Origin: Ostreococcus lucimarinus
Taxonomy: Eukaryota
DNA length: 64,000 nt
Direction: 5' to 3' (one strand)
NCBI GenBank assembly: GCA_000092065.1
Contig: CP000586.1
Numbering within the stretch: the first letter of the stretch is position 1; each line of letters opens with the position of its first letter. The notes below the pieces were generated by a model. The model worked only from the letters and a program-made list of their open reading frames with translations, was not told where the DNA came from and made no database searches. Below, piece after piece: positions 27,965 through 45,443 of the stretch. A program made the translations under genes and the position numbers.

Positions 27965-30900
27965 TCACGCGTCGATGTTTAAGACGCACGCGACGCCGCG
28001 TAAGATCCACGCGCTCGCGTGCTCGCTCGAGGCCAAGTCGGCTTGGAAGACGAGACCGCGACCCATGGCGTCGCGACGACTTTGAGTGAAGTACACGGGC
28101 GCTTTGAAAGCGTTCGTTGTCGATGAGGAGGAGGAAGAAGAGGGCATCGTGGTGCGTTCTATCGGGACGAGACGCAGGATGGGGAGCTCGCGCGCCAAGC
28201 CGCGGTCGCTTGGATGCGCCAGGACGCGGCGTTCGGCGTCCCAAATCGCGCCTTCGAGAAATAAACCCGAGATGTAACAGCCTATCTCGGGTTTGGCGTC
28301 GATTTCATCCGCGGAAACGTACGGGGTGACTTCCGTATACATCGTGCTCGCGTCTAAAGGCCAACCACGAGAGCGACACGCGGTTTGAATGAGTGCCGCG
28401 ATGTACGTTTCCGGGCAGTGTAAACCGCTGAGCCAGATGACTTTTGGTTCGCCGTCGACGGCCCACGACTTGTACTGCTTCTCCCGCGTCTTGTACCACG
28501 TCATCCAAGATTGTACGTCTTTGTCTGTCGGTGGCGCGACACTTTTCCACTCCTCCGGTAAGCGCCCGCGCGAGAGTGAATCCGCGACGGCGTCGAGTTC
28601 TCGCGACATGCCGATTTCCCCACTCAGCGCCTTGACGAGCTCTCGCAACGAGTGTCGAAGCACCAGCTTTAACGCGTTGTGACGCTCAATCTCCTGGAAG
28701 AGTACCACGGTCGTCGGCGATGGAACTTCATCTCCGCGCTGACGCTGGAGTTTTATCAAGTCAAACTCGAAATCTTCGTTCGTGACGACGTTTAAGATTT
28801 CGTTGACGATGGCGAGCAAGGCGCCGTTTCCATCGCTCGAGCCAGCGCTCTCGTCGTTCGACGAAGCCGAAATGGAGAGTTTACTCTGGAGCGATAAGAC
28901 GTTAGACCATAACGCTTTCGCTGCTCGTGTAGAGTGTGCGACGTCTGCGTTGGCGTGAAGCCCGAGTACTTCAGGTGTCTGCGCGTCTGGAAGTTCATCG
29001 ATGACGCGCGATTGCTCGTCGTACGAAGATTCCGGCGGCGGCAACTCATAACGAACTCGAGCTTCTTCGTCGGCGTAAAACATGAACTTGTGAAAGCCAT
29101 CAAATAAGAAATCGCCAAAGTACTCGTCCAGATACGCGCTCAAGATACGTCGATCGTAATGATCGCTCACGCGTCCACCGTACATGGCCTCACCTATGAG
29201 ATATTTCAACGCCGCCCACGGAATCATTCTCGAGCCGCCGCCGCCGGTGTTCACGGCGGCAACTTTGTTACAATAAGTCTTGATCAAACTGAACGAAATT
29301 CGAAAATCGGTTTCGTTGAAATCATACGCAACGTTCCATCCGAGCTTACCGTACTTTCGTCGCTCTTGCACGGCAGCGTGGAAGAAGGCCAGCACGTACG
29401 CTAAAGATCTAAAGAAAGGGTTCGCGCAACTCCCCAAGACGTCTTCGGACAATCTCGCGTACGACGCCTTCATGTTCATCTTGAGCCCGTCGGGGGGTTC
29501 TGTGACAACTTTGAGACTTTTTTGCAGAATACCGATCGGGAACGTTTTGATCGGGTCGGTGGTGAGCCACAAACGGAAGTCTTTGTGCGGGTTCGCCAAT
29601 CCGTCGACGACTTTTTCGAGCGCCGGCAGCCATTTGGGGAGAAGATGACAGTTTTGCAACATGAGCCACAAACCTCGCGAGGCGCACGTAAGAATAAGTT
29701 CCTCGGCTTTAGGTCCCATGCCTTGCCCAAGGGCCATGAACTTCAGTTTGCCTCCTGCCTTGAATCCCATCGTTTCTCCCAACGCAAAAATATCAAACGC
29801 CGGATCTGCGCCAGGGGAGAGAATGAACACCACAGGTGTCTGCGCGGAAGACAATTTAAATATGCTTTCGTAGTCTGAAATCGGAGGCGTTACGTATCTT
29901 GAACCCATGGTTTCAGTGATGTAGTTCGACACCGCCACCGTGACTCGATCTAATCGAGCGCAACGCAACAAGCATAGGCGCTCAAAACTGGACAGCGACG
30001 CCGAGTAACCATCTGGAAGCGCTACGGATTCGGGTTGTTCGCAGTCGTACCATGCGCGCCACGCATCGGCGTTGGACGTGATTCGATCGACGATTCCGTT
30101 TAGTGTTGCGCACTTGTCGTCATTAGCCGCGATGTGCTCGTCTAAATGCATTAAATCTTGCCAACCACGTTCGGACCACCATGGAAGCGGTTGCGAATCC
30201 CCGGAGGCGGCGTCAAGCGTGACGTTGCCCTTGAGGAAGAATCGTAGGAGGTTGCCATTCAATCGTCCATCACCGTCTTCGATTCTCGTAGTCATTTGAA
30301 ACGAAAGCGCGAGTTTATCGCGCTTGAACAAACCGAGACATGCAAATTTGTACACGTCGTACGTCAACCTATCCACAAGATCACTCAAGCGCTCGTCCAG
30401 TTGATCGCGCACGGGCGTGACATGAAGCGTGTTGCAGAACACATCCAAAAAGCTCGAAAGTGAGTACTCGTACATCGCGTTGAGATTAGAGAGCGCTGAA
30501 ATGACGAAGAAGAGTATCGCGCCGCGCTTTGCTACGGGAGAGTAGCACGACTGTGCCTTGTTTAACTCTTTCGCCGAACGCGCCGCCGCCACGAGCTTTT
30601 CAGAAATCTCTGTAGACTTTGTCTTCGCGCTCTCGAGTGTTTCGATGAGCTCCACGTTATCAACGATTTCACCCTGTGCGGTGGACAACTCATAAAGCAA
30701 CGTGTCTTCGAGTTTCTTCAACAGTGCTCGATTCGCGACGGTTTCCTTGACGAGTTTTTCTCGCTCTGTTTCAAGATCTGGGCGCTCTTGCTTCACCGTG
30801 ACATTCAAAAGTTGCTCTTGGAGCCCGAGCTCAGTGACAGAGTAGTTGATTATAATCGTTTTACCCGTCACATCTGGATCGTAATGGGGATTTGGAAGTT

Positions 30901-33900
30901 TCGTCGTCATGTACAGGCGGAAGTTGTCGTCCCACTCAACTTCAGAATCGCCAAGCTTGATCATCTTCGCTCCGTTTGGAGCGTAGTAGAAACTCTTCTT
31001 CAGCACCGGGTCCAAAACGGGATCAATGTACTCGCCCACGTTTTCTATCAAGAATGGTAAACCATATTCAATGGCGAGCTCGAGTTGTTTCAAAAAGTCT
31101 GCGTCGGTCTGACGTTTAATCTTACCTTCGAGCTGCGCGCCCTCGCGAGATTTGATCCACTTTACCGCTTGCATCTGCGGATCGATACACAGCGGGAATC
31201 GCTCGGCGCGCATGGTGAGTATACCGTTTTGTACGCTAAGCTCATCACCTGGCAACCCTTCGGCGAGCCAAGAATTCATTTCGTTGTCATCTGTGAGTAA
31301 CGCTTGGAGTCTGAATGGTTGACTCAACGGTATGCCGAGCTCCAGCAAATTCTTCTCAAGATGATCGTGAACGAATTGTTTACGAAACTCGTACGTAAAC
31401 GTTCCAGCGTACGACAAGAACGCGGAAGTGATCAAACAATCGCCAACAAGTCGCTCTTTACGGGAATTCAGTTCTTGCATCTCATTCGTCCATCTGACCT
31501 TTTCGCTCGACAGTCCCGAGATGAGTCGTTCGGCGGCGGCGAGACGGTTCGCCATTAGCTCGGCACTTTCCTTCAAGTCTTGCTGACGCGCGCTCTTCTC
31601 TTCGAACTGCGTGCTGAGTTGCTTTAGCTCGATCTGTAAGCTCTTTAACTCAGACTTCGTTTCAACCAATTCGCGTTCTTTAATCTTCAACGTCTTCTCC
31701 GCGTTTGCGACGGCGGCGCGCTTTGGATTCACCATGCGAGCAACTTTGTTGTAATTAATCATAGCAAACACCCATTTCAGCAGACCGGCACCAGCAGTCG
31801 AAATCTTCATCACTTCATCGGGCTTGAATTTTGAGTCTTTTGTGTACTCGCGAATGGCTTTCATCTGTTTTTCTTTGATGCCATCCTTGTCAAACTCGAC
31901 GAGAGATCTTAAGAAATTTGTATCTGCCATCATGCCTTTCGCTCCAGACCACGAGACGTTCGGCAGTCCTTTGAGAATCATCACACATTCACATACTCGC
32001 TGAACCGCGATGTTTGGCTTAGAAAACGATCGGATTTCGGTAATCTCGTCCTTTTTCAGATTATTCAACGCCGCGGCGGCTTCTTCGAGAGCAGGGATTG
32101 CCGCCTCTAAGTCTGCCTCAGCTTCCGTCTTTTCCTTCGCGATACGCGCTGAATCATTGATGAGATCTTCTTCTTTACTCGTTGCGTTAGCTGCTTTAGT
32201 TTCGACTTCCGCCGTGCGCTTCGTGATGCGATCTAGTAAAGCATCACACTCCTTCGCTTGCTGCGTGACGACGATTTGCGCGTCGTTGAGCTTCGTCCGC
32301 ATTGCGTCCACTTCGGTGCTCGCCTGTATTAATTTGTCGAGACCACCACGCAAACGTTTGATTGAAGTTTCAATTGACGCGCGCTGCGTCTTAAGCATTG
32401 CTTCATAGGCGGCGATAAAGTCCAAATAATGCTTCGGAGTGACGTAGTTGTGTCTCTTCAGCTGTGATTTGAACTTTTCGTTGAGAGCAATCGCCGAGCA
32501 GTGCGTGTGCACGACGTGCACGTTAATCTTCTCCGCGAACTGTTCTGGCAAATCTACGTTTATGAGTAATGAAGTGCTTACTTCGAGCAATGCTTCTTTC
32601 GGCCATTCTGTGAACCAGTCGATAACAGTGTTGTTCACCAATCCGGGGAAGTTTCTGCAACGGTGACGCAACGTATCGCCGACGGGAGACATGGCGAGGA
32701 CGATGTGCAAGTTCTTTCGGCAACGCGAAATAAAGTATCGCCAACCTTCATCGCGCGTGACAGAAATTTTATTCGCGTGCAAATCGTCACGAATCGCATT
32801 CACCAAAGCGTCCTTCTCTTCATCGGCGAACAACGCGGGAACCGTACCCGTGGTGAGCATGTTGTTGATTAACTCCAAAAATCCTTCCTCAACGACGTGG
32901 TTGTCGGTGAAAAGAAACATCGTGGGATGATTTTGCACCCCAAGTACGTTGTATAGCTTTTTCAAGTCCTCCCTGAACGACTCATCGTTGTAGCCACGCG
33001 TCAGCGTGATCTCAAACACTTCACAACCCGCCATATCAGCGGCGAGATGCGCGAGCGATTGTTTGCCGCTTCCGCCGACGCCGACGAGAAGCGCATGTCC
33101 ATTTTCTGTTCGAAGTACGCGATGAATACGCGTGATATGCTCTAGCGCATGATCAAACAAGACTAGTTTAGTCGGTGCTGAGCCATCGCTGAGTTTGGCG
33201 TTACGACGATTGATGAGGTCCTCGAACCAAGGTTTGATGGTGGCGTAATCGCCAACGTCAGCGTACGAGCGTAGTCGACTAGAAGGATCGACTTCATCTG
33301 ACGATCCACTTCCATCGATTTGTTTTAGTGGACTGTAGTCGGCGAATAAAATCGGGTTGGATGTGATCGGCGAAGTGTCATCAGTACACCCATGGCGAAT
33401 AAGTGACGATACTTTTCCCAGTACGAAGTCGCGATCTTTGTCCGCAATCAACCTATCGTGAAACACGCGAATCGATTCGTTTCGCCACAGGCGCAAGAAA
33501 TCTGGGGTGTTTCGAACTTTTGCTGACGTCGCTTTCGACATGCCCTCGAACAAGCGACTTAAGTCGCGAAGGTTAAAGATGTAATGAAATCGGCTCGGCG
33601 TCGGCAAAAGTTTGGAGACGACGCTCTTATATAAATCCAAAGTCATATCTACGACGAGTTCGTGCGTCCCGGGCTTGAGAGCCAGCGTTTTTGACGTATT
33701 CGTTATGATTGAACCATAAATTACCTTAAGATTGGTCTCATCCGGGGTCTGCATTTCGAATACTTGGAACATTGAAACAAAGCGTGGGTCCACAACGCTT
33801 CGTGCGCCGCCGGGATGCCCCATGGCTGCGATGTACTGAATATCCTTCATCTGCAGCCAATTCAAATCACGTCCGCGGTCGTACGTGCCTCCACGGCCAA

Positions 33901-36900
33901 TCATGAGTTTTAGCAACGCGATTGGTTGTTGCGTACCGTACTTATCGACGGCAGGCATGTTCAAATCGTCCACGAAGCACAATAAACGCTTGCCGACGGG
34001 TGGACCCACCGTGTCCTTCGTGCGCTTGTCCAGCACATCCATGAGCGAGCTATGCACATCATTTGCGGTCGTACGAGAACTGAAATTCATCGTCACCGTG
34101 TTCGTCTTTCCATCTTGCAATCTCTTTTGTAAATAGTTCTTCACGACAACAGTTTTACTTGTTCCGCTATCGCCGGTGAGAAGCGTATGCGCGTCACAAG
34201 AGCACATGAGGTCGATTAACCAGTTTGTGCGAACCGTGTGCGCGGTTGAAACCAAGAGCGACGAAAATGGAGTGTTTGGTGGCACCTCGAGTGGAGTGGT
34301 GAGACTTTTCCATTCGTACCACGTGTTACGAGTGATATCAAAGCCATAATCATACAACGTCGCGCCCGCCGGCAAAACGTTGCCGAAATTGGCGAGTCGC
34401 CTAACGAAGTCATCGAATCTCGCACGATCAGAGTTTCCAGACGTTTCAACGATAGTCGCACCGAATGACCACACTAAGCAGAAGATAAAAGCCGATTCGA
34501 TCGCCCGAACGTAGTCATCATCCTGGCTCGTCTCCACGTCGCTGGTGGAGTCATCGAGAGCTTCCAAAAAGCTTTGCATCAAAATGGTGAACTGTTTTAC
34601 CACAGATATCACCGGTCGATCGATCGACGTTCGCACGATTGAAATCATTCGCCCGTCAAGTTCTGTGCCGTCGTAGCAAAATGCCGTCATTCTATCCATG
34701 TACTTGTCAAACATACGCAATAACGTTTCGCGGTGCTTGGCGCCGACACCTTCGGACCAAGTCTTGAGGAACGGTTTGAAGCCGAGATTCTTGGGGTCTA
34801 CGTACACCATTCCGCAACGACTTACAGTGGCTGGAGAAGCATACTTTAAGTCGGCCACCTCAAACAAAAGCTTGCAATGGTCTTGAAGACGAATCCGCTC
34901 ACCGTTTGGCAACGTCAGTAGGCGATTATCGTCCATTACGCTATTCATATTTTCGACCCAAACTGCGTCGACATCGCCATCAAATACTATATACTTGAAG
35001 TCGTTCTCACGTCCAATAGCCATCGGTTTGTTGCACTCGCGAAAAATATTCGAAAGAAGACCATCAGTCCAATCTCGCGTATCCGGATCCAATTCGCCAT
35101 AGAGTTCGGCCACCGTTTGCGCTTTTGGATTTAGAGTGTACAACTTCGTATTTCGACCCATCGTAGTTTGCGCGCGAGCGATTGTTTCAAGCATGACAGA
35201 CTTACCTCCACCAGTCTCGCCGACTAACATCGTCGTATGCCTCGTCAACATAGTCTCATACAACTGAATAATTTTGTCCACTTGCTCGCCCGGGCGCGTC
35301 AACACTTGATAGCCATGCTTGGCCAAGTCTTGTTCAATGACATCGTTGAGAGTAGGATATCGAACACGCGGGCAGTCTAGTCCAGGGAATAAATCGGCGA
35401 TCAGACCCAAAAAGAGTGGGACATCGTCGAATACAAACTTTGGCAGATTCATATCCCTCAACGCTCGCATGAGAACTACCTCTTCGGCGAGCTCGGGCGC
35501 ATCGCGCTTCAGCGCGCCAGCCATGACGAGCACCGATTTAAGCGCGCGTAAACCGAAATCATAATGCGATCTTTTGCTAAGTTGCTCTTTAGCCAGGCGG
35601 TACAGTATCGTCATCTTCTTCGCGAGAGCTTTCGCCGCGTTGAAACCTTCGCTAAAGAGCATAATTTCACAAATTTGCTCCAAATCCGGCACAATCATAG
35701 TAACGGGGCGGAACAGAGCCTTCAAGTTATCCGGAAGTTCGGTTCTACCCGCATACCCAGGATTCATAGTGATGAAAATACCGGTGCGTGCGTCGCAATT
35801 GATTTCTTTTCCTTCAAACTGGAATCGTGACAAATTGTGCTTCAACGCTTCTTGAATCTGCTTAATTTGCGATGAGACGACGGACAGCACCTCAGCCTCA
35901 ATGCGATTGAACTCATCGAAGCATCCCCACGCGCCGCACTGCACAAGACCACTAAAAATGGCCCCCATAGCTTTGTAGTCTAATCCTTCACCACAATTGA
36001 ACACGACGCAAAGCAAAGCCATGGACTTTGCCAAATCCTTTGTGGTCTCCGTCTTTCCTGTGCCCGCGGGCCCGCTCGGGGCACCGCCGAGTCTATACGT
36101 CAGCGCCGTAGTGAGCGTGATATAGCAGCGGTCAGTTAGACCAGTGATTACGAGACGCCCATTCAAACCCATGTACTCGTAACCATATCTGAATTCACCA
36201 CTGCACTGATTGATGACGATGTCGTCGCGTGCCTTGTCCCACTTGAAACGAAGTTGCGACTCCCACGCAAAATCTGACTCATCTAAAACAGAATCTCTAA
36301 CGAAAGAGTCGATGATGTCTCGCGCGTGGACGTCAATGATGATCAACGTATTCACTTTTTTTCGTTCGCACGAGCTAAGCTCGCCTCGAACCATTTTCGT
36401 GAGAACCTCGAGTTGCGACGAGAGCTTGTCGCTGTAATTCCGCATGGCGAGTTTATCGCCCGAGCGAATCGATTTGAATACGTTTTGCACTTCCCAGGTC
36501 CACCAAATTTGCGACCCCACAAGGGTGATCATTCCAAGCTGTTCTTTTATCCATTCTTCACGATCGCACGTCATGTATCGCGCGACTCCATACTTGCACA
36601 ACGCGCGTAAGGTTGCCCGCATCTCTTCTTCGACGGCAGACATCCAATCCTCAACAGGGCCTTGAATTTTTACGGGCGACTTGAACTTGAACGATTCCCC
36701 CTCTGCGGACGTAATCCCGACTACGCACGCTTTATCAGACGTAAACGTCAGCTTTGCACAGTTGTCAAACAGCTTCAACATGTGCTCCTGAATTAGTGTC
36801 GGATCGGCAGCACCTAAAATTGAAAGCAGCTCCTCGTCGGAGATGAAGAAGAAGCGCGGAAACGCGTCCCGCTTTGTGTCTAAATATTGACTCAAACTCT

Positions 36901-39900
36901 TTTGACATATCTCCAGCTCCTCGCGAAGGTTCTTCAGCGTTTCTAAGCGCCCTTCGGATTTGCACATGTCTAAAACGAATTTAGTCTTCACAGTTTCCGC
37001 CATGAGTTTGCGTATTTCAGTATCGATGTTGTCAAAACGATCAGCTTCCTCAGGAAGCTGCGTGCGTATGTCGTCTGAGCCACCAAAAATGCTGAGTAAG
37101 TACATCCAACGTTGCTGCGTGTCGATCCACACCTGTAGAACATTGGCCACTAATGCGAGCGTTCCTTCCCACTCGCGCACGCTTTCGATGAGCGGATCAG
37201 CATACCGACTTGCCGACATACTCTGCAAAGTTAATCCCGTGTCTTCGAGCGCGAGCGTAATTTCTTCCACGGCGCAAAGCACGTACGTGGGCTGCGCGTG
37301 CTTCTTGCTTTTGCCTTTGGAGTAAGGTCTAAGATCAAAGCGCATTTCTCGCCATGATCGATCGATCGCGATTAAGTCGTTTTCAATTTTTAGCTCCTTC
37401 TCTGCCGCCGCTGTAATGTCCATGATTTTTTGCGCGTGCGCGTGAAGTTTCATCTCACTCAAGTGTCGCATCGAGAGTTGCGCGCTCTTTACGGTTTCGT
37501 CGTCAAAATCAACAGTCTGAAACACAGACTTCCAGTGACGAGGTCGAATTGCATCAACTTTCAAGCTTTCGATGAGGTTCAAATCAGTTTCGATGTCGTC
37601 AATTTCTTCCCGGACAGCCGCAAAGAGGCGATGCGAATGAAGACTCTTCGGAAGCGTCGAGAGCTGCGTTCGACCAAAAGCCACGACAGAGGCGTACACG
37701 TTCGCGACGACCAACTCTGGAACGAGCGTTTCGTAAAATTGTCGCAACTGACCTCGATACGCTCGTTGACATTCGTATATCTTTGCCATGGAATCCAAAT
37801 CAGTTTTTGCTTGCTCAAGCGATTCAAACGAGCATTGATCGACGCCAAAGACGCGCTCACTGTCTCTAATATCGGCCAATGCATCCAATCTACCGAGAAT
37901 TTCTTCTTTAAACGTCTCAAAACTTTCGAAGCCGGCGTCTAAATTTAGCAAAAGATCGGCGCATGTCGGGCCTTCAGCCTTGAGCCTGTTCGCGAAGCCA
38001 TCACATTCCTCCTGAAATAGGCGCGCCGTTCTTTTCAGTTCCGTCTTGAAGTCTGAAATCTTCAACGTCATGCCTTCGTAAACACGTTCGGCGCGCGCGC
38101 GGAGCTTTTCAAAAGATGGAATCGTCGCCGATGCGCGCTCAAGATCAGAGGGATCGTGTTCTATCCTGTATTTCATTCTCACGGCAAATCGATCGTTCAC
38201 TCCACTTGCCGTCACTTCGGTCGCGGTGTTTTCGCGCACATCTCTGACCGTCTTTACCAGATTCTTCATGGTGAGGAAATCACGTGCGTCGACTGAAAAT
38301 GTATTCTCGCATGCCGCCATGTGCTCGTAAAGGTCATTCAGGAGTTTGACGTCAGCATGATACGTCGCGGCACCGATGTCTTTGATCCACTGAGCGCTCT
38401 TGTTCTTAATGAGGGTGGTCAATTTGTCGGCTCGCACCCGCACAGCGCCGATGTCCACGCTCGCGTCCTCATCCATGGCTTTCATGACGTCCTCGTATCT
38501 AAGTAAAGCGCGTTGAAGACTCAATGCGTTCATATTTTCCGTATGTTTTTCGATCACGAGATCTTTGTCGTCTTTCCACACGGCTTGGTATCGCTTCCAC
38601 ACTTCCATCTGGCGGCGGATTTCACCCGCAAAGAGATGTGAGACGTTGCTCAAAGAGCTCATCGCGTCGCACACGCGTTCGTTCGCTGAAACCTCATTCC
38701 CAAAGTTGAACGCATGAGTCACCGTGTTTGATGCGTCATCGTCGAGTTCTATGGCAAGTAAAGTGGAGAGGCTCAAATCTGAGCTCGAAGTTGCTCGCCG
38801 CGTGGGCATCCCCACACAAGTGCCGTCCATCCATCGGCCGAGCACTGAGGCGGCATTTGCAATGGATTTCGCCGCGTATGCAATGGATCGAATGAGCTCT
38901 TTCAACGGCGGTTCGCACACGATTTCTCCCGCTCGCAGAGTTATATTTAGTTTAAACAGAGTGATGTTCGAAGGGAGCGACTTGTCAAAATACTCCCTTA
39001 ATCGAAGAATGTTCCGCTCCGCAGCGAGAACGAGAGCGTCGTAAATCTCGCTCTCCCAATAGGCATAGTATTCCCTCAAATGCACAACCTTCCCGGTGCG
39101 TGTGCCGAAAACGATTTCTTCGACACAAAGCAAAAGATTCATGATGTTGACGTATTCCTCTCGCACTACCGAAGCCGTTTTGCTGCATTGCGCGGCGAGT
39201 TGAGCGAACAGTTCGCCGCTTTCGCGCTCAACGCCGGATTTTGACAGTGCTTCACAATCGACGAATGATGAGACCGAGATCTTTTTCACTGACCGCTCTA
39301 GATCGCCAGCGTGCGTTCGCACGCCATCTATAACAGTTGTAAAGTCCTTAAGTTCCGTTGTGTACGCCGCGACAAAGTCAGGAATACCCAAAGAGTTCCA
39401 ATTATACGTCTTCAGTCCTCGATGAAGAGACGCGCTATTCAGTACCGCCACGCGCGTGCGGAAGAGTTGACGCTCCAGTGGTGACAGTGAATCGAGTACG
39501 TCGCGACGATGAGCGAGCATTTTACTAAGCGTGCATCTATAAGCGCTGTATTTTTCGCTTTGCAATGCCACGCCACGCGCCTCTGCTGGGATGTCGAAGC
39601 CAAGTCGTTCCAGATTTCGAGTCTCCTTGATTAGGCTTGTGAGCGCTGGGTGGAAATTCATAATCACGTCGTCCCCACTCTCATTCTTCGATAATATAGG
39701 TTGCATAAGGCATGATGTCAAAGTAGAGTCTATTTCTTCTTTCCAAGTTAACACGCGCTGCTTCTCGTAGTTCATGATAAGTTTTGCCAAGGCTAAAAAC
39801 TTTGCGTTCACCTCTTGCGCCGCCGGCGTGTCGCGAATACCTCGTTGATCCTCGACGCACGCGTTGAACGATTTCATGGTAACTCGCAGCTTGTAAAACA

Positions 39901-41905
39901 GTGATCTTACCCAATGAATCGATCCACTTACGGTTGGTTGGTCGCGATTGAGCGGTGGTGAGCGGCGGTGACTGTTGAAGATGTGCCGGGTCGAATCGAT
40001 CTCGCGAGAAAATTGCTCAAGGACGTCTTGCATCTTGCCAAGAATTTGACTGTTTAGTGTCATACGCGTCGATCCAGACAGTACTTCGTCGTCGTCCGCG
40101 TGCATTGTACTTTTCAGCTCTTGAACGAGCGCGAACGCTCCCGCACTACTGCGCAACCTCTTGAAGCATGCGTCGATGAAGTTACACAGCGCGCGTTCGA
40201 TGCGCGTCTTTTCCATCACGAAAGACTTGTGCATCGCCTTCCAACTCGCTGCGTTCGCCGAGTCGAAGATGTCTAGCTGCGACATTTCAATTGTAAGGCA
40301 AAGCGCATCCACTCGCGCAGAGATTTCGTCCACGCCGTCGGCATCGAGAGTCACTGCTTTGAGACGCGGACTGAGAAACGTGCGGAAATCACTCACTACG
40401 ATAACCATTTCGCTGAATTCCGCACAAACGTCCGCAACGTAATCCGACTTCATGAACAAGCGTTCGCGATCAAACTCCCACCTTGAATCCCTATTTGAAC
40501 GTTCGATTTCTTCTCGCGCGTTCAAATATTCGCTCTTCCAAGATTCCATAATCGACTTTGAGAGTTGTACGTCGCGCAACGTGGCGTGCGCCCCAAGTCC
40601 GCTCGACGCTTGGGCAAACAGTTCCTGGTAGTTTACCGATTCGCGAACACGATGAATGAGCGCATCTGACAGGCGTTCTAATAGGGAACCCATTCGAGAG
40701 TCGTCACTGTAGTGGTGCGAAATTACCCAAACCATTCGAAGTGCGCGAAGCGTCGGCGCGATGGCGCGGAGCACGTCCGGCAACAGCGCCTCACTCAACA
40801 CTTTGAAATGACTCTCGAGCGTGGACAAAAACTTGATGTTGTCAGCACTCACGCTGTGTAAGTGTGTGATTTCTCCCAAGAGCGTTTTAAACGCCGACGC
40901 GACGTTGCGCACGCGAGACGAAAATTCATCGACAGAAGCAGTGTGCTTCGCCGCAAATCGTTCCAGCACGTCCAACACAATGTCCATGCTCGGATCGGAG
41001 AGCTGCGTCACCAAACCTGACAAGTCGTTATGTCGCGCGCGCCACAGACGAATCTCCACTAGCGGTCCTTCGTTTGCCCCTGCACATTCTTCCGTGATCA
41101 CGCTTTCGCTTTCGTTCCTCGTCTTCGCCGCCGACATCACCGCGCACCACTCAACCGCCGCAGCTTCGAGCTGACGCACGAAAGCCTCGTCTTCACACGC
41201 CTTGGCGGGATCGATGTCGCAGAGTGCACGACCCGACGCCCCGCCCGCCTTGACGACGCTTTTCAGTGACGCCTCTGGACTCTGAACTGGGGCGTTTACG
41301 CCTTGAATCCCATCCAAAAACTCCCGCACATGCTTCGCAAAGGATTGACTCTCCGTCGACGCACTCGACTCGAACGCGGATACGAATGAGCACTGTAAAG
41401 TCGCGTGAAGCTCGTCCATCGACGCCCCGTGCGGAAGGAAGCCGTACATCGCACTCCGCAAATCATCGAGTCCGATCGAATTTTCGTCGTTCACGCAGTC
41501 CGGACGCACGATGAACAACACAGGCTGTTTTGGATCGCACTCGCCGTCCGCGACGAGCTCGAGCCGAGGTCGCCGAGGCGAGTCTTCCCGCGCGCCTCCA
41601 TCACTCTTGACGACGCCGGCGTTCGTCGAGTCCGCGAGCGCGTGCGAAGTGATGGAGGACAACGTGAGTCCATTCATCGTCTTCGCCCTCGCTTTCACCG
41701 TCGAAGTCGCGCGAAGCCGCAGCACGAGCACGTCCTCGCGTCCGCAATCGAGAAAGTCCAAGGTCTTTGCGCGCGAACCGTCACCGAACCCCACGACGTG
41801 TTCGTCGATGTCGGCGTCGACGCACGACGATGCGAGACGAAGTATAAAGGCGACGCGCGCATCTGGTTCCTCGGCGCCATCCTCGCCGTCGTCTGCGCAC
41901 GTCAT
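27965..41905 (-). CDS. Dynein heavy chain, axonemal type (inner-arm I1/f-like size class); single ~14-kb exon, 4,646 aa.
   Basis: AAA1 P-loop '[33 protein letters not shown]...[12 protein letters not shown]' (axonemal signature, not the cytoplasmic 'TESVKAL'). Further P-loops 'GETGGGKS' and 'GVGGSGKQS'. Stalk coiled coils and a canonical C-terminal domain are present. The track M1 (41938) is TTG; the first ATG is at 41905. Confidence 0.9.
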   Translation of the reverse strand: [4646 protein letters not shown]

Positions 41906-42028
41906 TCCGCGTCGAAGAATGCGCGACGACGCACGCAAAGACCTTGGACTTTGCTTTGACTGAGAAAAAAGACGATTCGGCTAAAAATAAAACACGCACT
42001 GCATTCAGCGACGTGCGGCGCGCGGAAG
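41906..42028. promoter_or_regulatory. Putative bidirectional promoter shared by the dynein heavy chain and the RIIa-like gene.
   Basis: ~120 bp between divergent ATGs. Inferred from arrangement only. Confidence 0.3.
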
Positions 42029-42631
42029 ATGATTGAAGAATTGGAAGCGTACGCGAAGGAGAGCAAAGTGGATGATTTATTCCGGGATATGATGACTGGG
42101 TGTTTCAAGAAACGACCGAGCGCGCCGGTGACGTACATCTTGGAGTACCTCGCGAGCGAGTACCCAGAGGAGAGTTTGACGCACGCGCGCGCGTTCGTAG
42201 ACTTGAAGGATGGGATCACGAGCGCGAACGTGGCGGTGGACGAAGACGAAGACGGCGCGCACGATGTTGTCGTTGAAGATATCGATGAAAAACATGAGAT
42301 CGTCGAGGCGCCGCTGACGTCACCCAAGGACGTCCCCGCGAAGGCGACCGACGTCGTCGCGGAGGCGATCGAGGACGTGGCCGTTGAGGGCGAGATATTA
42401 CCGGACGAAGCACAACATCTCATGGCGCCAGAGGAGGGCGCACACGTCGACGTCGTCGTCGATAAGCCCGATGAGCGCGTCGAGGAGTGCGAAAGTGTCG
42501 CCGAAGAGCCCGTCGACGCGGACGCAGGTGAGGAAGAGCAAAAAGAAGAACCACCCGTCGTGACGCCCGCGAGTGAGGAAGCTGTCGAATCGATTACGAA
42601 TGCGGAGAACGTGGAGGATGCACCAAACTAA
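42029..42631 (+). CDS. RIIa/DPY-30-like dimerization-docking domain protein with a long acidic tail.
   Basis: N-terminus 'VDDLFRDMMTGCFKKRPSAPVTYILEYLASEYPE' follows the RIIa pattern (hydrophobic spacing ...F..E.L..QP.D...FA..YF..L). The remainder is Asp/Glu/Val-rich. Confidence 0.45.
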   Translation: MIEELEAYAKESKVDDLFRDMMTGCFKKRPSAPVTYILEYLASEYPEESLTHARAFVDLKDGITSANVAVDEDEDGAHDVVVEDIDEKHEIVEAPLTSPKDVPAKATDVVAEAIEDVAVEGEILPDEAQHLMAPEEGAHVDVVVDKPDERVEECESVAEEPVDADAGEEEQKEEPPVVTPASEEAVESITNAENVEDAPN

Positions 42632-43989
42632 ACTAAAGCGCTAATGCTATCTAAAACGCGTTTCACCGCGCGTTTGTCGCTCAAGACCGTCAACGCGGGT
42701 CTGTACCGTTTTAATAAGTTCAACTCGTCCTTGCTCAAGTCGCCGATTTCCTCGCCCCCGGCTCGATGTTCATCGCGATCAAACTCACTCAAAATTCGTC
42801 GAGCGACTGCGTCGCGATCGTCGTCGACGTTGATCCATGCGTAGCGCGATTCGCCGCGAAACCACGTGAATTGACGTTTCGCGTACGCGCGATTGAGCAT
42901 CTGAATCTCATTCACCAGCTCCAATAACGACGCGTCGTCGACTTTGATCTCCTTCGCCCGAGCCTTTGCCAAGTACTCCATCGCCTGCCGGTAACCGATG
43001 GACCGCGCCGGGACGTTTTCTCCCGGCGCGATTCCAGCATTCAATAACCACGCGGCTTCATCCATGATTCCATCTACAAACATACCCTCCACGCGAGCGT
43101 CAATTTTTCGATACAGCTCGACGCGCGGCGAAGATAAAAAGAAACATCTAAAATCAAACCGCGCCTCAGGATTCTCGCGCGCGAACGCCTTGACGCTTTG
43201 CCCGCTCGTGCGCACGATTTCGTACGCTCGCGTCAATCGATACCAATCGTTTTCGCTCAGCGTCTTCCCCGTCTCCGCATCTCCCGCGCGCGTCAACAAC
43301 TCCACGGCTTCGCGCCACCCCCCCCGCGCTCTCGCCTCGCCCACGGCGCGTTCCGCCGCCTCTCGCGTCTCTGGCGTCGACCCCGGCGCGCTAGGTTTCC
43401 CATCCGTCAACCACTTCAAATACATCCCCGCACCGCCCACGACGACCGCATCGCGCCCTCGTCGATGTATATCGTCGATCACGTTTACGGCTTCGTCGTA
43501 ATACGCGTTCGCGTCGTACTCTCCACTCCCATCTCTCGCGCGCGGATCCAGCGCGCTCAGCATGTGATGCGCGCACGCTTCGAGCTCCCGCGCGCCCACT
43601 TTCCCCGACCCGACGTCTAATCCGCGATATATTTGCACCGAATCGCACGACACGATTTCAACCTCGCGCGCGTCTCGTCGCTCTCGTCGCGCGCGCGCCA
43701 TGGCGATCGCGACCGCGCTCTTCCCGATCGCCGTCGGTCCCGTGACGACGAGCACCTTAGCGCGCCGCGTCGCGCGCGCGATTCCGTCGTCTCCCTCGCG
43801 CCCTGGATCAACGTCGCGCGCGCCGTTCGCGTCGGCATTCGCACTCGCACTCGCATTCGCATTCGCATCGACGCGCGTCGTCGTCGTCGCGCGTCGTCGT
43901 CGTCGCGGCGCCCCGCACGCGGTCCAGCGTTTCGTCGCGCTCGCGCCGATGCGCTCGAGCCACGTCCGCGCGCCGCACGCCGCGCGCAT
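42628..43989 (-). CDS. tRNA dimethylallyl(isopentenyl)transferase (MiaA/TRIT1/IPT family) with an N-terminal presequence.
   Basis: 'VTGPTAIGKSAVAIAMA...EIVSCDSVQIYRGLDVGSGK...HHMLSALDP...VVVGGAGMYLKWL' matches the MiaA/TRIT1 P-loop and DSMQVY motifs. ATG at 43989. Confidence 0.8.
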   Translation of the reverse strand: MRAACGARTWLERIGASATKRWTACGAPRRRRRATTTTRVDANANASASANADANGARDVDPGREGDDGIARATRRAKVLVVTGPTAIGKSAVAIAMARARRERRDAREVEIVSCDSVQIYRGLDVGSGKVGARELEACAHHMLSALDPRARDGSGEYDANAYYDEAVNVIDDIHRRGRDAVVVGGAGMYLKWLTDGKPSAPGSTPETREAAERAVGEARARGGWREAVELLTRAGDAETGKTLSENDWYRLTRAYEIVRTSGQSVKAFARENPEARFDFRCFFLSSPRVELYRKIDARVEGMFVDGIMDEAAWLLNAGIAPGENVPARSIGYRQAMEYLAKARAKEIKVDDASLLELVNEIQMLNRAYAKRQFTWFRGESRYAWINVDDDRDAVARRILSEFDRDEHRAGGEEIGDLSKDELNLLKRYRPALTVLSDKRAVKRVLDSISALV

Positions 43990-44033
43990 CGTTCCACTCG
44001 CCGCCGCGCGCGCGTCAGAGAGTGACGCGCGGC

Positions 44034-45443
44034 ATGGACGTCGACGACGACGACAGCGACGACGACGGCGCGCGAGCGCTCGCGAGCGCGCGTCCGACGC
44101 TGTGTTACCCGGGTCGGCTGACGTCGCGCCGAGAGTCGCGCGCGTTCGCCGACGCCGGCGCGCGCGGCGCGCACAAGGTTGGCGGCGCGCCGGTGGCGCT
44201 GACGGCGGACGGCGACGACGACGGCGACGACGGCGACGACGACGGCGACGCGGCGACGCGGTGGTACGCGCCGCGGTGCGCGTCGTGCGCGCGCGCGATG
44301 ACGCTCGTCGTGCAGACGTACGCGCCGAGAGGAGGTCGCGGACGGGCGCTGTACGCGTACGCGTGCGTCGGCGGCGGCGCGGCGTGTCGAGGAGACGACG
44401 CGTGGGCGTGCGTCAGCGCGACGTCGATCGCGGCGCGCGCGGACGCGAGCGAAGAGCGCGGGCGCGATGGCGAAACCACGACGCGCGACGGCGGTGGCTC
44501 GCGCGCGCGCGCGACGAACGGCGTCGAGACGTACGGGACGGCGGAACGCGCGCCGGCGATGGAGGACGCGTGGGACGATCCGGAATCGAGCGCGTGGTGC
44601 GACGACGGCGCGGACGCGGCGGCGCTGAGCGCGGAATTAGATGCCATGTTGGTGTGCGGGGTAGGGCGCGCGGAAGGACGCGCGGAAGGGCGCGCGGAGG
44701 CCGCGATGACGCCCGGCGACGAGGACGAAGACGATGGCGATGGCGACGACGACGCCGCGAGACAAGAAGACGGTTTTTCTTTGTCACGGATCGTGCGCGA
44801 GGCGTACGACGCGGCGTGCGCGACGCAAATAGTAGAATACCACCTCGTGTCCGAGATTGAGCCGAAAGCGGTCAGCGGGATGACGGTGAAGGAAGCGGCG
44901 CACGCCGAGGCGCTCCTGGCGCGATACGCCGAACGCGAAGGCGTCTCCGTGACGGACGTCGTCGCCATCGATGACGAGGATGGCGAGTGGGCGGGAGAGA
45001 CGTACGAGCGTGGCGAAGCACGACATGCGGATGATGCGTATTTAAAGTTCGCCCGCCGTCTGCAGCGCGCGCCTGATCAGTGCATGCGATACGACGTCGG
45101 CGGCATGAAGTTCATCTGGCCGACGAAGACGCCGCCACCGTCAACTTCGTGCGATCGCTGCGGCACCACGCGCGTGTGCGAGCTTCAACTCACTCCGGCA
45201 CTTTTGCGAGACGTTGAAGATGCGTTGTCGATGCACAAGGGCGATAAATCGCGCCTCGCGAGCGAAGAGGATCTCTTGGGCTGGGATTGGCAAACCGTCT
45301 GCGTGTTCGCGTGTCCAAACGACGCGTGCGTCGTCCCATCCACCGACGTGCATCGGAACGTCTCGTACGCCCTCGAGCGCGTCTTCGTGGCCGAGAGTGA
45401 GGCGCCTGGGGATGCCCTGCTCAAAGCCACTCGCGCGTCCTAA
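44034..45443 (+). CDS. PDCD2/Tsr4-family protein (PDCD2_C domain; no MYND finger).
   Basis: N-terminal 'YPGRLTS...KVGGAPV...RCASCARAMTLVVQTYAP'. C-terminal 'MRYDVGGMKFIWPT...CDRCGTTRVCELQLTPALL...DWQTVCVFACPNDAC' parallels the human PDCD2 'ILRYGRGG..PLWIS...CPCGAKRILEFQVMPQLL...DWGILAVFTCAESC'. ATG at 44034 (the track start is GTG). Confidence 0.7.
   Translation: MDVDDDDSDDDGARALASARPTLCYPGRLTSRRESRAFADAGARGAHKVGGAPVALTADGDDDGDDGDDDGDAATRWYAPRCASCARAMTLVVQTYAPRGGRGRALYAYACVGGGAACRGDDAWACVSATSIAARADASEERGRDGETTTRDGGGSRARATNGVETYGTAERAPAMEDAWDDPESSAWCDDGADAAALSAELDAMLVCGVGRAEGRAEGRAEAAMTPGDEDEDDGDGDDDAARQEDGFSLSRIVREAYDAACATQIVEYHLVSEIEPKAVSGMTVKEAAHAEALLARYAEREGVSVTDVVAIDDEDGEWAGETYERGEARHADDAYLKFARRLQRAPDQCMRYDVGGMKFIWPTKTPPPSTSCDRCGTTRVCELQLTPALLRDVEDALSMHKGDKSRLASEEDLLGWDWQTVCVFACPNDACVVPSTDVHRNVSYALERVFVAESEAPGDALLKATRAS

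What the first reader, a model, noticed from the sequence alone, without database searches (positions are those of the whole stretch)
41906..42631. Dynein heavy chain is divergently paired (~120 bp) with an RIIa/DPY-30-like docking-domain protein
RIIa-domain proteins are classic axonemal scaffold/AKAP-binding components (radial spoke, central pair, I1-associated). Finding one as the head-to-head partner of the only dynein heavy chain suggests a co-regulated two-gene motor-plus-docking module sharing a bidirectional promoter. The RIIa-like assignment rests only on the N-terminal helix pattern (VDDLFRDMMTGCFKKRPSAPVTYILEYLASEYP). The rest is an acidic low-complexity tail.
Basis: inference. Interest (0 to 1): 0.6.

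Follow-up and report, generated by a model that had tools for sequence, protein, structure and literature searches.

The report
PKA-subunit docking-domain relic beside dynein gene
Next to an inner-arm dynein motor gene in the flagellum-less alga Ostreococcus lucimarinus sits a small, conserved gene that is the shrunken remnant of a protein kinase A regulatory subunit, keeping only its docking domain; whether it serves the dynein is unproven.

Summary
The window is Ostreococcus lucimarinus. A 4646-aa dynein heavy chain (27965-41905, minus strand) and a 200-aa ORF (42029-42631, plus strand) lie head to head, 123 bp apart.

- **The dynein.** It is the I1/f inner-arm 1-alpha (DNAH10) orthologue. 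It is one of two heavy chains this non-flagellate alga is known to keep, so it is not "the only" one.
- **The small protein.** Pfam RIIa and Dpy-30 do not hit it directly. Profile searches still place residues 1-50 in the RIIa/DPY-30 docking-domain clan, RI-like (R1D2) type with a PxxP loop:
  - FAP385, E 3e-5
  - algal PKA-R-like proteins, E 1e-9 to 1e-4 against 1.8 billion proteins
  - hhalign probability 99.6%
- **Selection.** The domain is under strong purifying selection (dN/dS 0-0.24). Residues 61-200 are acidic and predicted disordered.
- **New result.** In two more distant relatives the gene in the same slot (dynein / X / tRNA-IPT) is a PKA regulatory subunit, either full or cut off. 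The Ostreococcus gene is therefore a PKA-R relic reduced to its first docking domain.
- **What is not shown.** A 123-bp divergent spacer is ordinary in this genome, and the unrelated neighbours are equally syntenic. A motor-plus-docking module remains a plausible, untested idea.

The parts
27965..41905 (-). Dynein heavy chain, 4646 aa, intronless. Orthologue of inner-arm I1/f 1-alpha (DNAH10 / Chlamydomonas 1-alpha).
   Evidence: All dynein heavy chain Pfam domains including DHC_N1 and DHC_N2. The best solved chain is 8glv_Cn at 4654 bits. DNAH10 scores 3920, and I1-beta/DNAH2 about 2400.
41906..42028 (.). 123-bp divergent spacer between the two ATGs; presumed shared promoter region.
   Evidence: Read directly. 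The spacer is 98-133 bp in the 8 Ostreococcus-like lineages and otherwise poorly conserved.
41980..41992 (.). AT-rich element GCTAAAAATAAAA, the only conserved motif in the spacer. It may be a TATA-like core element.
   Evidence: GCTAAAWWT, in either orientation, is present once in the spacer of all 8 Ostreococcus-like lineages. In the 64-kb window it occurs only here and twice inside the dynein coding sequence.
42029..42631 (+). Small gene, 200 aa plus stop (XP_001418334.1 / A4RZH3).
   Evidence: ORF. Exact match to the O. lucimarinus protein. Orthologues found and aligned.
42029..42178 (+). Residues 1-50: RI-type (R1D2) dimerization/docking domain. It comprises an N-terminal helix 2-11 (Y8-A9), helix I 16-28, a loop P30-S-A-P33 (nt 42116-42127) and helix II 34-44.
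   Evidence: Profile hits. Invariant Y8, F18, P30, P33 and L41. AlphaFold2 helices, pLDDT up to about 79. dN/dS 0-0.24 over codons 1-62.
42164..42214 (+). Residues 46-62: a fourth conserved helix specific to Ostreococcus (ESLTHARAFVDLKDG). It is not shared with PKA-R-like relatives.
   Evidence: H52, A53, R54, A55, D58 and G62 are invariant. The profile matches to distant relatives end at about residue 49-50. AlphaFold2 predicts helix 46-60.
42215..42628 (+). Residues 63-200: acidic, fast-evolving, predicted disordered tail. It carries two short conserved motifs, IVEAPL (residues 91-96, nt 42299-42316) and HLMAPEE (residues 130-136, nt 42416-42436).
   Evidence: 33% D+E. No secondary structure and pLDDT mostly below 50. 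dN/dS 0.27-0.52. V92, P95, A133, P134 and E136 are conserved. No second docking domain and no RRxS site remain.
42628..43989 (-). tRNA isopentenyltransferase (IPT), convergent neighbour. Its stop overlaps the small gene's stop by 4 nt. It serves as the synteny anchor.
   Evidence: Pfam IPPT, E 3e-56. It holds the same position in all related loci.

Best explanation
The 200-aa ORF encodes a real, conserved protein. Its first 50 or so residues are an RI-type (R1D2) dimerization/docking domain of the RIIa/DPY-30 clan. An Ostreococcus-specific helix follows (residues 46-60), and then about 140 residues of acidic disordered tail.

It is the positional orthologue, and the truncated descendant, of a PKA regulatory-subunit gene. 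In the common ancestor of the lineages compared here (probably Mamiellophyceae) that gene already lay head to head with the I1/f 1-alpha dynein heavy chain gene and tail to tail with tRNA-IPT.

- **Shown:** stepwise reduction across lineages. One relative has the full regulatory subunit (two docking domains, an RRxS inhibitor site, two cNMP-binding domains). Another has the two docking domains plus the inhibitor site. Ostreococcus has the first docking domain only.
- **Inferred:** the protein homodimerises into an X-type four-helix bundle and docks onto an amphipathic helix of an unknown partner. It acts as an architectural or adaptor element, and can no longer sense cAMP or inhibit a kinase.

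Its adjacency to the dynein gene is inherited gene order in a very compact genome. A functional tie to the retained I1 dynein is possible but not demonstrated.
For: **Domain**
- A2 profile against solved chains: FAP385 3.3e-5, PKA RI-alpha D/D 0.11, AK7 0.26, DPY30 1.1.
- Exhaustive profile search: 33 distant homologues at E 1e-9 to 1e-3. Of 30 scanned, 17 hit Pfam Dpy-30, 4 hit RIIa and 7 hit cNMP_binding. Intermediates pass the Dpy-30 gathering score (P0084 29.6 bits, P0088 24.1 bits, L023 gene 26.1 bits).
- hhalign A2 against A5: 99.6%, E 2e-24. A5 against solved chains: FAP385 4.8e-10, RI-alpha D/D 6.8e-7, plus AK7, AK8, DPY30, enolase and EFCAB10.
- R1D2 hallmarks as defined in PMC8339350: the P30-x-x-P33 loop and Y8 in an N-terminal helix are conserved.

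**Descent from PKA-R**
- L023 has a dynein first exon, then a 434-bp spacer, then a gene with docking domain 1, docking domain 2, RRPSVSAEC and two cNMP-binding domains, convergent with IPT.
- L016, L017 and L018 are independent assemblies. Each has an I1-alpha heavy chain next to a 219-aa protein with docking domain 1, docking domain 2 and RRHSVSAEC. That protein stops 89 bp before the convergent IPT.
- tblastn with PKA-R-like proteins finds no cNMP-binding domain in the 20-kb L016 locus or in the 64-kb window.
- The Ostreococcus tails contain no second docking domain and no RRxS site.

**Function retained**
- dN/dS of the docking domain is 0-0.24, against 0.27-0.52 for the tail.
- The domain is 74-84% identical across lineages. 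In the same lineages the dynein tail is 50-65% identical and IPT 53-67%.

**Ordinary spacing:**
Against: - Pfam RIIa and Dpy-30 do not hit this protein directly.
- The AlphaFold2 monomer models are of low to moderate confidence (pLDDT 54-61 overall), and Foldseek on the monomer found nothing meaningful.
- Dimerisation and helix binding are inferred from family membership only.
- The taxa of L016 and L023 were not identified, so the order of the reduction steps is inferred from domain content, not from a dated tree.
- The L023 dynein evidence is only 26 codons at a contig end (E 1e-8 to the L016 N-terminus).
- The conserved linkage, together with the known PKA/AKAP-to-I1 pathway in Chlamydomonas (PMC12760996), could mean the adjacency is not merely inherited.
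Confidence: 0.65

Rival explanations
1. The docking-domain protein is a dedicated partner of the retained I1-type dynein. The two genes are co-expressed from the shared 123-bp promoter, and the dimer docks onto an amphipathic helix in a dynein subunit or a dynein regulator. This would be a surviving piece of the axonemal PKA/AKAP-to-I1 regulatory circuit.
For: - The head-to-head pair is kept in every lineage examined. That range runs from a full PKA-R gene to the docking-domain-only form, and the dynein tail is only 35% identical at the extreme.
- In Chlamydomonas, I1 dynein lies downstream of RII-binding AKAP/PKA signalling, and the 1-alpha mutant ida1 is epistatic (PMC12760996).
- PKA-R-like docking-domain proteins are generally lost with flagella (PMC8339350). 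Here one is retained in an alga that also retains I1 dynein alone (PMC2239267).
- The docking domain is under stronger constraint than the dynein tail.
- A single conserved AT-rich element sits in the spacer.
Against: - IPT, PDCD2_C and UPF0060 are equally conserved in order, so collinearity suffices to explain the linkage.
- A 123-bp divergent gap is typical here.
- No expression, chromatin or interaction data exist for the small gene.
- To my knowledge (not tested here), no docking-domain subunit is described in solved I1/f complexes.
- The closest solved relative, FAP385, is a radial-spoke protein, not an I1 protein.
Confidence: 0.2
2. The protein still works in PKA signalling. It either heterodimerises with, or competes against, a full-length PKA regulatory subunit encoded elsewhere for AKAP-type helices, acting as a decoy or modulator.
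For: Its closest homologues are docking domains of PKA-R-like proteins. Cross-member heterodimerisation of docking domains is documented for SPA17-ROPN1L (PMC8339350).
Against: Whether Ostreococcus has any full-length PKA-R or PKA catalytic subunit could not be tested with these tools. The inhibitor site that the L016 orthologue retains is gone here.
Confidence: 0.08
3. It is the DPY-30 orthologue, a subunit of the COMPASS/Set1 histone methyltransferase, and has nothing to do with PKA or cilia.
For: Pfam Dpy-30 is the model most often hit by the distant relatives. Three of the 16 homologues aligned with the window protein reach Dpy-30 at E 0.12.
Against: Solved DPY30 chains score only E 1.1, against 3e-5 for FAP385. 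The nearest relatives carry cNMP-binding domains and RRxS sites. The positional orthologue is a PKA-R gene. The N-terminal helix with Tyr plus a hydrophobic residue, and the PxxP loop, are R1D2 hallmarks.
Confidence: 0.03
4. The ORF is a decaying, non-functional remnant or a chance ORF in GC-rich DNA.
For: The cNMP-binding domains, the second docking domain and the inhibitor site have been lost. The tail evolves fast and varies in length.
Against: dN/dS of codons 1-62 is 0-0.24 with dS saturated. The ORF is intact in all lineages, with 42 invariant N-terminal residues among seven representative sequences. Tail dN/dS is 0.27-0.52, not about 1.
Confidence: 0.02

Closest known systems
PKA regulatory subunit, type I (RI-alpha) docking/dimerization domain; R1D2 class of the PKA-R D/D superfamily (Dahlin et al. 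2021, PMC8339350)
   Same: An N-terminal flanking helix with an aromatic plus a hydrophobic residue (Y8-A9), then helix I, a PxxP loop and helix II. Homology is supported at the profile level. The positional orthologues are PKA-R-like genes.
   Different: It has no inhibitor or pseudosubstrate site and no cNMP-binding domains, so it cannot be a PKA regulatory subunit. It has an extra conserved helix (residues 46-60) and an acidic disordered tail.
FAP385 (Chlamydomonas radial-spoke neck protein, 70 aa; 7jtk/8glv) and the AK8 N-terminus
   Same: FAP385 is the best solved-structure match (E 3.3e-5, residues 3-44). It too is a small stand-alone docking-domain protein of the same R1D2 flavour. FAP385 resembles the AK8 N-terminus (PMC12399478).
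   Different: FAP385 is a radial-spoke component. Ostreococcus builds no axoneme and, from general knowledge, lacks radial spokes. The similarity is much weaker than to algal PKA-R-like docking domains. FAP385 has no long acidic tail.
Non-kinase docking-domain proteins (RSP7, RSP11/ROPN1L, SPA17, CABYR, RIIAD1)
   Same: The architecture is an N-terminal docking domain followed by a variable, often acidic, tail. The presumed role is architectural, binding AKAP-type helices rather than taking part in kinase signalling (PMC8339350; PMC12760996).
   Different: Most of those are R2D2 (RII-like, Pxx[LIV] loop and a beta strand), whereas this protein is R1D2. No orthology to any of them was found.
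Ostreococcus I1/f dynein (IAD-1alpha, IAD-1beta, IC138) retained without a flagellum
   Same: The neighbouring gene is the IAD-1alpha heavy chain of this known oddity.
   Different: In the papers found and read here, a PKA-R-derived neighbour was not mentioned.

Membership tests
RIIa/DPY-30 clan docking-dimerization (D/D) domain | Direct match to the curated Pfam models RIIa (PF02197) or Dpy-30 (PF05186) | tested here: not met
   No hit at E<=1 for the window protein. The best among the 16 homologues aligned with it is Dpy-30 at E 0.12.
RIIa/DPY-30 clan docking-dimerization (D/D) domain | Significant profile-level homology to bona fide D/D domains | tested here: met
   FAP385 at 3.3e-5. Thirty-three distant relatives, of which 17 of 30 scanned hit Dpy-30 and 4 of 30 hit RIIa. 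hhalign 99.6%. That family hits RI-alpha D/D at 6.8e-7.
R1D2 (RI-like) subclass of the PKA-R D/D superfamily | [quoted passage not shown] | tested here: met
   P30-S-A-P33. Both prolines are invariant in the Ostreococcus-like sequences and conserved in the distant family. Definition from PMC8339350.
R1D2 (RI-like) subclass of the PKA-R D/D superfamily | Flanking N-terminal helix carrying consecutive aromatic and hydrophobic residues | tested here: met
   AlphaFold2 predicts helix 2-11. Y8 is invariant and is followed by A, I or V. Model confidence is only moderate.
RIIa/DPY-30 clan docking-dimerization (D/D) domain | Homodimerises into an X-type four-helix bundle | not testable with these tools
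   Only single-chain prediction was available. The monomer pLDDT is about 60, and Foldseek on the monomer was uninformative.
RIIa/DPY-30 clan docking-dimerization (D/D) domain | Binds an amphipathic (AKAP-type) helix | not testable with these tools
   This needs a complex prediction or biochemistry. No partner has been identified.
PKA regulatory subunit | Inhibitor or pseudosubstrate site (RRxS/A) | tested here: not met
   There is no [RK][RK]x[ST] in any Ostreococcus tail. The site is present in the positional orthologues: RRHSVSAEC in L016 and RRPSVSAEC in L023.
PKA regulatory subunit | Two cyclic-nucleotide-binding domains | tested here: not met
   No cNMP_binding hit in the protein or anywhere in the 64-kb window by tblastn. 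The domains are present in the L023 orthologue.
DPY-30 (COMPASS subunit) | Closest similarity to DPY-30 proper | tested here: not met
   DPY30 chains score E 1.1, against 3e-5 for FAP385 and 0.11 for RI-alpha.
I1/f inner-arm dynein 1-alpha heavy chain (DNAH10), for the neighbouring gene | Best full-length match to I1-alpha rather than to other heavy chain classes | tested here: met
   8glv_Cn scores 4654 bits, DNAH10 3920 and IDAf-alpha 3338. I1-beta/DNAH2 scores about 2400 and outer-arm chains about 2000.
Subunit or regulator of the I1 dynein complex, for the small protein | Physical association or co-expression with I1 subunits | not testable with these tools
   No expression or interaction data were found. 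Gene linkage alone is not a membership criterion.

The most novel reading that the evidence does not exclude
In flagellum-less Ostreococcus, the relic docking domain is a true adaptor of the orphan I1-type dynein. A repurposed piece of the axonemal PKA/AKAP circuit now docks the cytoplasmic two-headed inner-arm dynein to its cargo or regulator through an amphipathic helix. The two genes are kept head to head because they are co-regulated, perhaps silenced together with meiosis genes by H3K27me3 and switched on in a rare life-cycle stage.
Probability: 0.12. Interest if true: 0.8.

Novelty: new member of a known kind. Interest (0 to 1): 0.45.

Why it matters
Why Ostreococcus, which has no cilium, keeps exactly one axonemal dynein (I1/f) has been an open puzzle since 2007 (PMC2239267). 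This work gives that dynein's immediate neighbour an identity: a strongly constrained docking domain descended from a PKA regulatory subunit. The PKA/AKAP pathway is the one that controls I1 in Chlamydomonas. It also shows that the dynein/PKA-R gene pair predates the loss of flagella.

That supplies a concrete, cheap candidate to test, by tagging, pull-down and knockout in transformable O. tauri. It is also a clean natural example of a signalling protein being whittled down to its docking module.

If the link is only inherited gene order, the result is still a corrected annotation for a 'predicted protein'.

Tried and rejected
- **Direct Pfam scans** of the protein and of 16 homologues found no RIIa or Dpy-30 hit below E 0.1.
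- **AlphaFold2 of the isolated N-terminus** gave pLDDT 60.6, and Foldseek against the PDB returned only meaningless helical matches (E >= 0.9). This is expected for an obligate dimer modelled as a monomer, and I discarded it.
- **P0116**, a 53-aa member of a PKA-R-like cluster on a long contig, turned out to lie in a bacterial phage-integrase context. It was mis-clustered and is a dead end.
- **Naming the organisms** behind L007-L016 by exact look-up of neighbouring proteins returned no organism names. I describe L016 (65% GC, 2.27-Mb contig) and L023 (58% GC, with introns) only as more distant relatives, probably Mamiellophyceae.
- **Co-expression or chromatin data** could not be found. The O. 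tauri H3K27me3 preprint marks both dynein genes, but no supplement is held. No paper mentions the neighbouring gene identifiers or the protein accession.
- **A degenerate second docking domain or inhibitor site** in the Ostreococcus tails was searched for and not found. The second-docking-domain profile only re-finds the first docking domain.
- **A further homologue search** from the L016 and P0087 proteins found only close strains on short contigs, apart from L023.
Full report
**1. What is there**

The window comes from Ostreococcus lucimarinus CCE9901. The 200-aa product of 42029-42631 (+) is identical to XP_001418334.1 / A4RZH3, 'predicted protein'. The same sequence occurs on hundreds of marine metagenome contigs.

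On the minus strand, 27965-41905 is an intronless 4646-aa dynein heavy chain with the full set of dynein Pfam domains. Its ATG is at 41905 and the small ORF's ATG is at 42029. The two genes are therefore head to head across 123 bp. The small gene's stop overlaps, by 4 nt, the stop of a convergent tRNA isopentenyltransferase gene (42628-43989; Pfam IPPT, E 3e-56).

**2. The dynein**

The full-length protein scores best against Chlamydomonas chain 8glv_Cn (4654 bits). Next come DNAH10 (3920) and 'IDAf-alpha' (3338). I1-beta/DNAH2 scores about 2400 and outer-arm chains about 2000. It is the I1/f inner-arm 1-alpha heavy chain.

This is a known oddity. Wickstead & Gull (PMC2239267) reported that non-flagellate O. 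lucimarinus lacks all cytoplasmic, outer-arm and single-headed dyneins, but keeps IAD-1alpha, IAD-1beta and IC138. Two later papers say the same (PMC6727741; PMC5100056). So 'the only dynein heavy chain' is true of the window but not of the genome.

**3. Is the small ORF a gene?**

Yes. Homologues fall into at least eight Ostreococcus-like lineages. Their first 62 residues are 74-84% identical among seven representative sequences, with 42 invariant positions. Their tails vary in length and sequence but are always acidic.

| Region | dN/dS | Note |
|---|---|---|
| Codons 1-62 | 0-0.24 | dS 0.7 to saturation in most lineage pairs |
| Tail | 0.27-0.52 | three lineage pairs |

In the same lineages the dynein tail is only 50-65% identical and IPT only 53-67%. 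The small N-terminal domain is therefore the most constrained thing in the neighbourhood.

AlphaFold2 with the orthologue alignment predicts helices 2-11, 16-28, 34-44 and 46-60 (pLDDT up to about 79). It predicts no structure for residues 61-200, where pLDDT is mostly below 50. The tail (residues 63-200) is 33% D+E and 4% K+R.

**4. Is the N-terminus an RIIa/DPY-30-type docking domain?**

Neither PF02197 nor PF05186 matches at E<=1, and the aligned homologues reach only Dpy-30 at E 0.12. The homology is nevertheless solid.

- phmmer of the single protein against solved chains already ranks FAP385 first (E 0.0017) and the PKA RI-alpha D/D domain third.
- A profile of the N-termini (A2) gives FAP385 3.3e-5, RI-alpha D/D 0.11, AK7 C-terminal DPY-30-like domain 0.26 and DPY30 1.1. 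Five of the seven listed hits are clan members.
- The same profile against 1.84 billion representative proteins finds nine close clusters and then 33 distant hits at E 1e-9 to 1e-3. Two of these (P0101, P0109) are repeat artefacts.
- Of 30 distant hits scanned, 17 match Pfam Dpy-30 (best 1.6e-8), 4 match RIIa (1.7e-8) and 7 carry cNMP-binding domains. Several pass the Dpy-30 gathering score.
- hhalign of A2 against an alignment of their docking domains (A5) gives 99.6% probability, E 2e-24 over 48 columns.
- A5 in turn hits FAP385 (4.8e-10), PKA RI-alpha D/D over its whole length (6.8e-7), and AK7, AK8, DPY30, enolase, RI-beta and EFCAB10.

Dahlin et al. (PMC8339350) define the RI-like 'R1D2' class by an N-terminal flanking helix with an aromatic plus a hydrophobic residue, and a PxxP loop. 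[quoted passage not shown] Here Y8-A9 sit in predicted helix 2-11, and the loop is P30-S-A-P33, all conserved. The domain is therefore RI-like, in the same class as AK8/FAP385. It is neither 'RIIa' in the strict sense nor DPY-30 proper.

**5. What the gene used to be**

The distant relatives include 400-530-aa proteins. One cluster contains a Pyramimonas parkeae transcript and another a Tetraselmis 'RIIa domain-containing protein'. Their architecture is a first docking domain, then a second docking-like domain (VxVxHxDPxxxxYLNxxL...RPxxPL), an acidic linker, RRxSVSAEC and two cNMP-binding domains. These are PKA regulatory-subunit-like proteins.

Gene context then settles the matter.

| Lineage | Gene between the I1-alpha heavy chain and the convergent IPT | Spacer to the dynein |
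|---|---|---|
| Ostreococcus-like (8 lineages) | First docking domain plus acidic tail | 98-133 bp |
| L016, L017, L018 (65% GC, 2.27-Mb contig; three independent assemblies) | 219 aa: both docking domains plus RRHSVSAEC | about 260 bp |
| L023 (58% GC, intron-bearing) | Full PKA-R-like: both docking domains, RRPSVSAEC, two cNMP-binding domains in at least four exons | 434 bp |

- **Ostreococcus-like lineages.** PDCD2_C and, in most of them, UPF0060 follow downstream of IPT.
- **L016.** Its heavy chain is I1-alpha: 8glv_Cn scores 3905 bits against 1467 for I1-beta. Its dynein tail is only 35% identical to that of O. lucimarinus. The 219-aa ORF ends 89 bp before IPT. No cNMP-binding domain is detectable anywhere in the 20-kb locus.
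- **L023.** Pfam cNMP_binding scores 3.5e-15 and 9e-11, and Dpy-30 26.1 bits. Across the spacer lie the first 26 codons of a heavy chain, 82% identical to the L016 dynein N-terminus (E 1e-8).

The Ostreococcus tails keep neither a second docking domain nor any RRxS/T site. The most economical reading is that the order I1-alpha heavy chain / PKA-R / IPT is ancestral. The regulatory subunit then lost its cNMP-binding domains in one lineage. In Ostreococcus it lost everything but the first docking domain, gaining a lineage-specific fourth helix (residues 46-60; H52, A53, R54, A55, D58 and G62 invariant) and an acidic disordered tail with two short motifs (IVEAPL, HLMAPEE).

**6. How it most likely works**

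- **Shown:** a strongly constrained R1D2 docking domain without kinase-inhibitor or cAMP-sensing parts.
- **Inferred from the family:** docking domains homodimerise into an X-type four-helix bundle whose groove binds an amphipathic helix. Many non-kinase docking-domain proteins (RSP7, RSP11/ROPN1L, SPA17, FAP385) are architectural parts of motile cilia (PMC8339350; PMC12399478).

I therefore propose a dimeric docking adaptor whose partner is unknown.

**7. Is it a dynein module?**

Arguments for:
- The pair is never broken in any lineage examined.
- In Chlamydomonas, I1 dynein lies downstream of PKA anchored by an RII-binding AKAP, and the 1-alpha mutant ida1 is epistatic to the AKAP mutant (PMC12760996).
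- PKA-R-like docking-domain proteins tend to be lost with flagella, yet this one is kept in an alga that also keeps I1 alone.
- The spacer holds one conserved AT-rich element, GCTAAAWWT, found in all eight Ostreococcus-like lineages. It is otherwise absent from intergenic DNA in the window.

Arguments against:
- IPT, PDCD2_C and UPF0060 are just as syntenic.
- An approximate gene map from the longest non-overlapping ORFs gives divergent gaps of -2, 30, 44, 123, 164, 205, 482, 582 and 675 bp in this window. So 123 bp is ordinary.
- There is no expression, chromatin or interaction evidence for the small gene.

A 2026 preprint reports that both O. tauri dynein genes are H3K27me3-marked together with meiosis genes. 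Whether the mark extends to the neighbour is unknown. I put the dedicated-module reading at about 0.2.

**8. Novelty and verdict**

The I1-only dynein of Ostreococcus is already known. Three things appear to be new. The neighbouring 'predicted protein' is identified as an R1D2 docking domain. It is shown to be a truncated PKA regulatory subunit. And the heavy chain / PKA-R linkage predates the truncation. None of the papers found or read mentions these points.

It is a new, divergent member of a known domain family, with a suggestive but unproven link to a long-standing puzzle. Interest is moderate (0.45).

Noticed in passing
L023:1-5247 (metagenome contig ERZ27315414 k141_192929): This intron-bearing relative has a complete PKA regulatory-subunit-like gene between the dynein first exon and the convergent IPT. 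The gene has two tandem docking domains, RRPSVSAEC and two cNMP-binding domains. It shows what the Ostreococcus gene used to be.
   Followed up: yes
L016:10001-10660 (also L017, L018): The orthologue in a 65%-GC relative is a 219-aa 'headless' PKA-R. It has both docking domains and the RRHSVSAEC inhibitor site but no cNMP-binding domains. That predicts a cAMP-insensitive binder of the kinase catalytic subunit. The organism was not identified.
   Followed up: partly
Proteins P0083-P0108, P0249: The algal PKA-R-like family carries two tandem docking-like domains. The second has the signature VxVxHxDPxxxxYLNxxL..LF..RPxxPL. Canonical PKA regulatory subunits have one docking domain. I did not look for any description of this in the literature.
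   Followed up: no
window 41980-41992; spacers of L007, L008, L010, L011, L013, L015, L022: A single AT-rich element GCTAAAWWT is the only conserved feature of the otherwise GC-rich dynein / docking-domain spacer. It occurs in either orientation and is palindromic (GCTAAATTTAGC) in two lineages. In the 64-kb window the 9-mer occurs only here and twice inside the dynein coding sequence.
   Followed up: partly
window 42164-42214 (residues 46-62): An Ostreococcus-specific, nearly invariant extra helix (ESLTHARAFVDLKDG) follows the docking domain. It is absent from the PKA-R-like relatives. It may extend the docking domain or form a second interface.
   Followed up: partly
window 42299-42316 and 42416-42436: Two short conserved islands, IVEAPL and HLMAPEE, lie in the otherwise fast-evolving acidic tail. 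They are candidate short linear motifs.
   Followed up: no
window 27965-41905 vs L016:1-9417: The O. lucimarinus I1-alpha heavy chain is more diverged from Chlamydomonas 1-alpha than the L016 heavy chain is (4654 bits over 4646 aa, against 3905 bits over 3139 aa). Dynein tails are only 50-65% identical among Ostreococcus-like lineages. This is consistent with relaxed or altered constraint after loss of the flagellum.
   Followed up: partly
window 42628-42631 and 43990-44033: Gene packing is extreme here. The small gene and IPT overlap by 4 nt at their stops. IPT and the downstream PDCD2_C-domain gene (44034-45443) are divergent with only 44 bp between their ATGs.
   Followed up: no
Literature: bioRxiv 10.64898/2026.08.19.745701: In O. 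tauri both dynein heavy chain genes (ostta06g04460, ostta14g00070) are reported as H3K27me3-marked alongside meiosis genes. This hints that the I1 dynein is silent in vegetative culture. The status of the neighbouring docking-domain gene is not given.
   Followed up: partly
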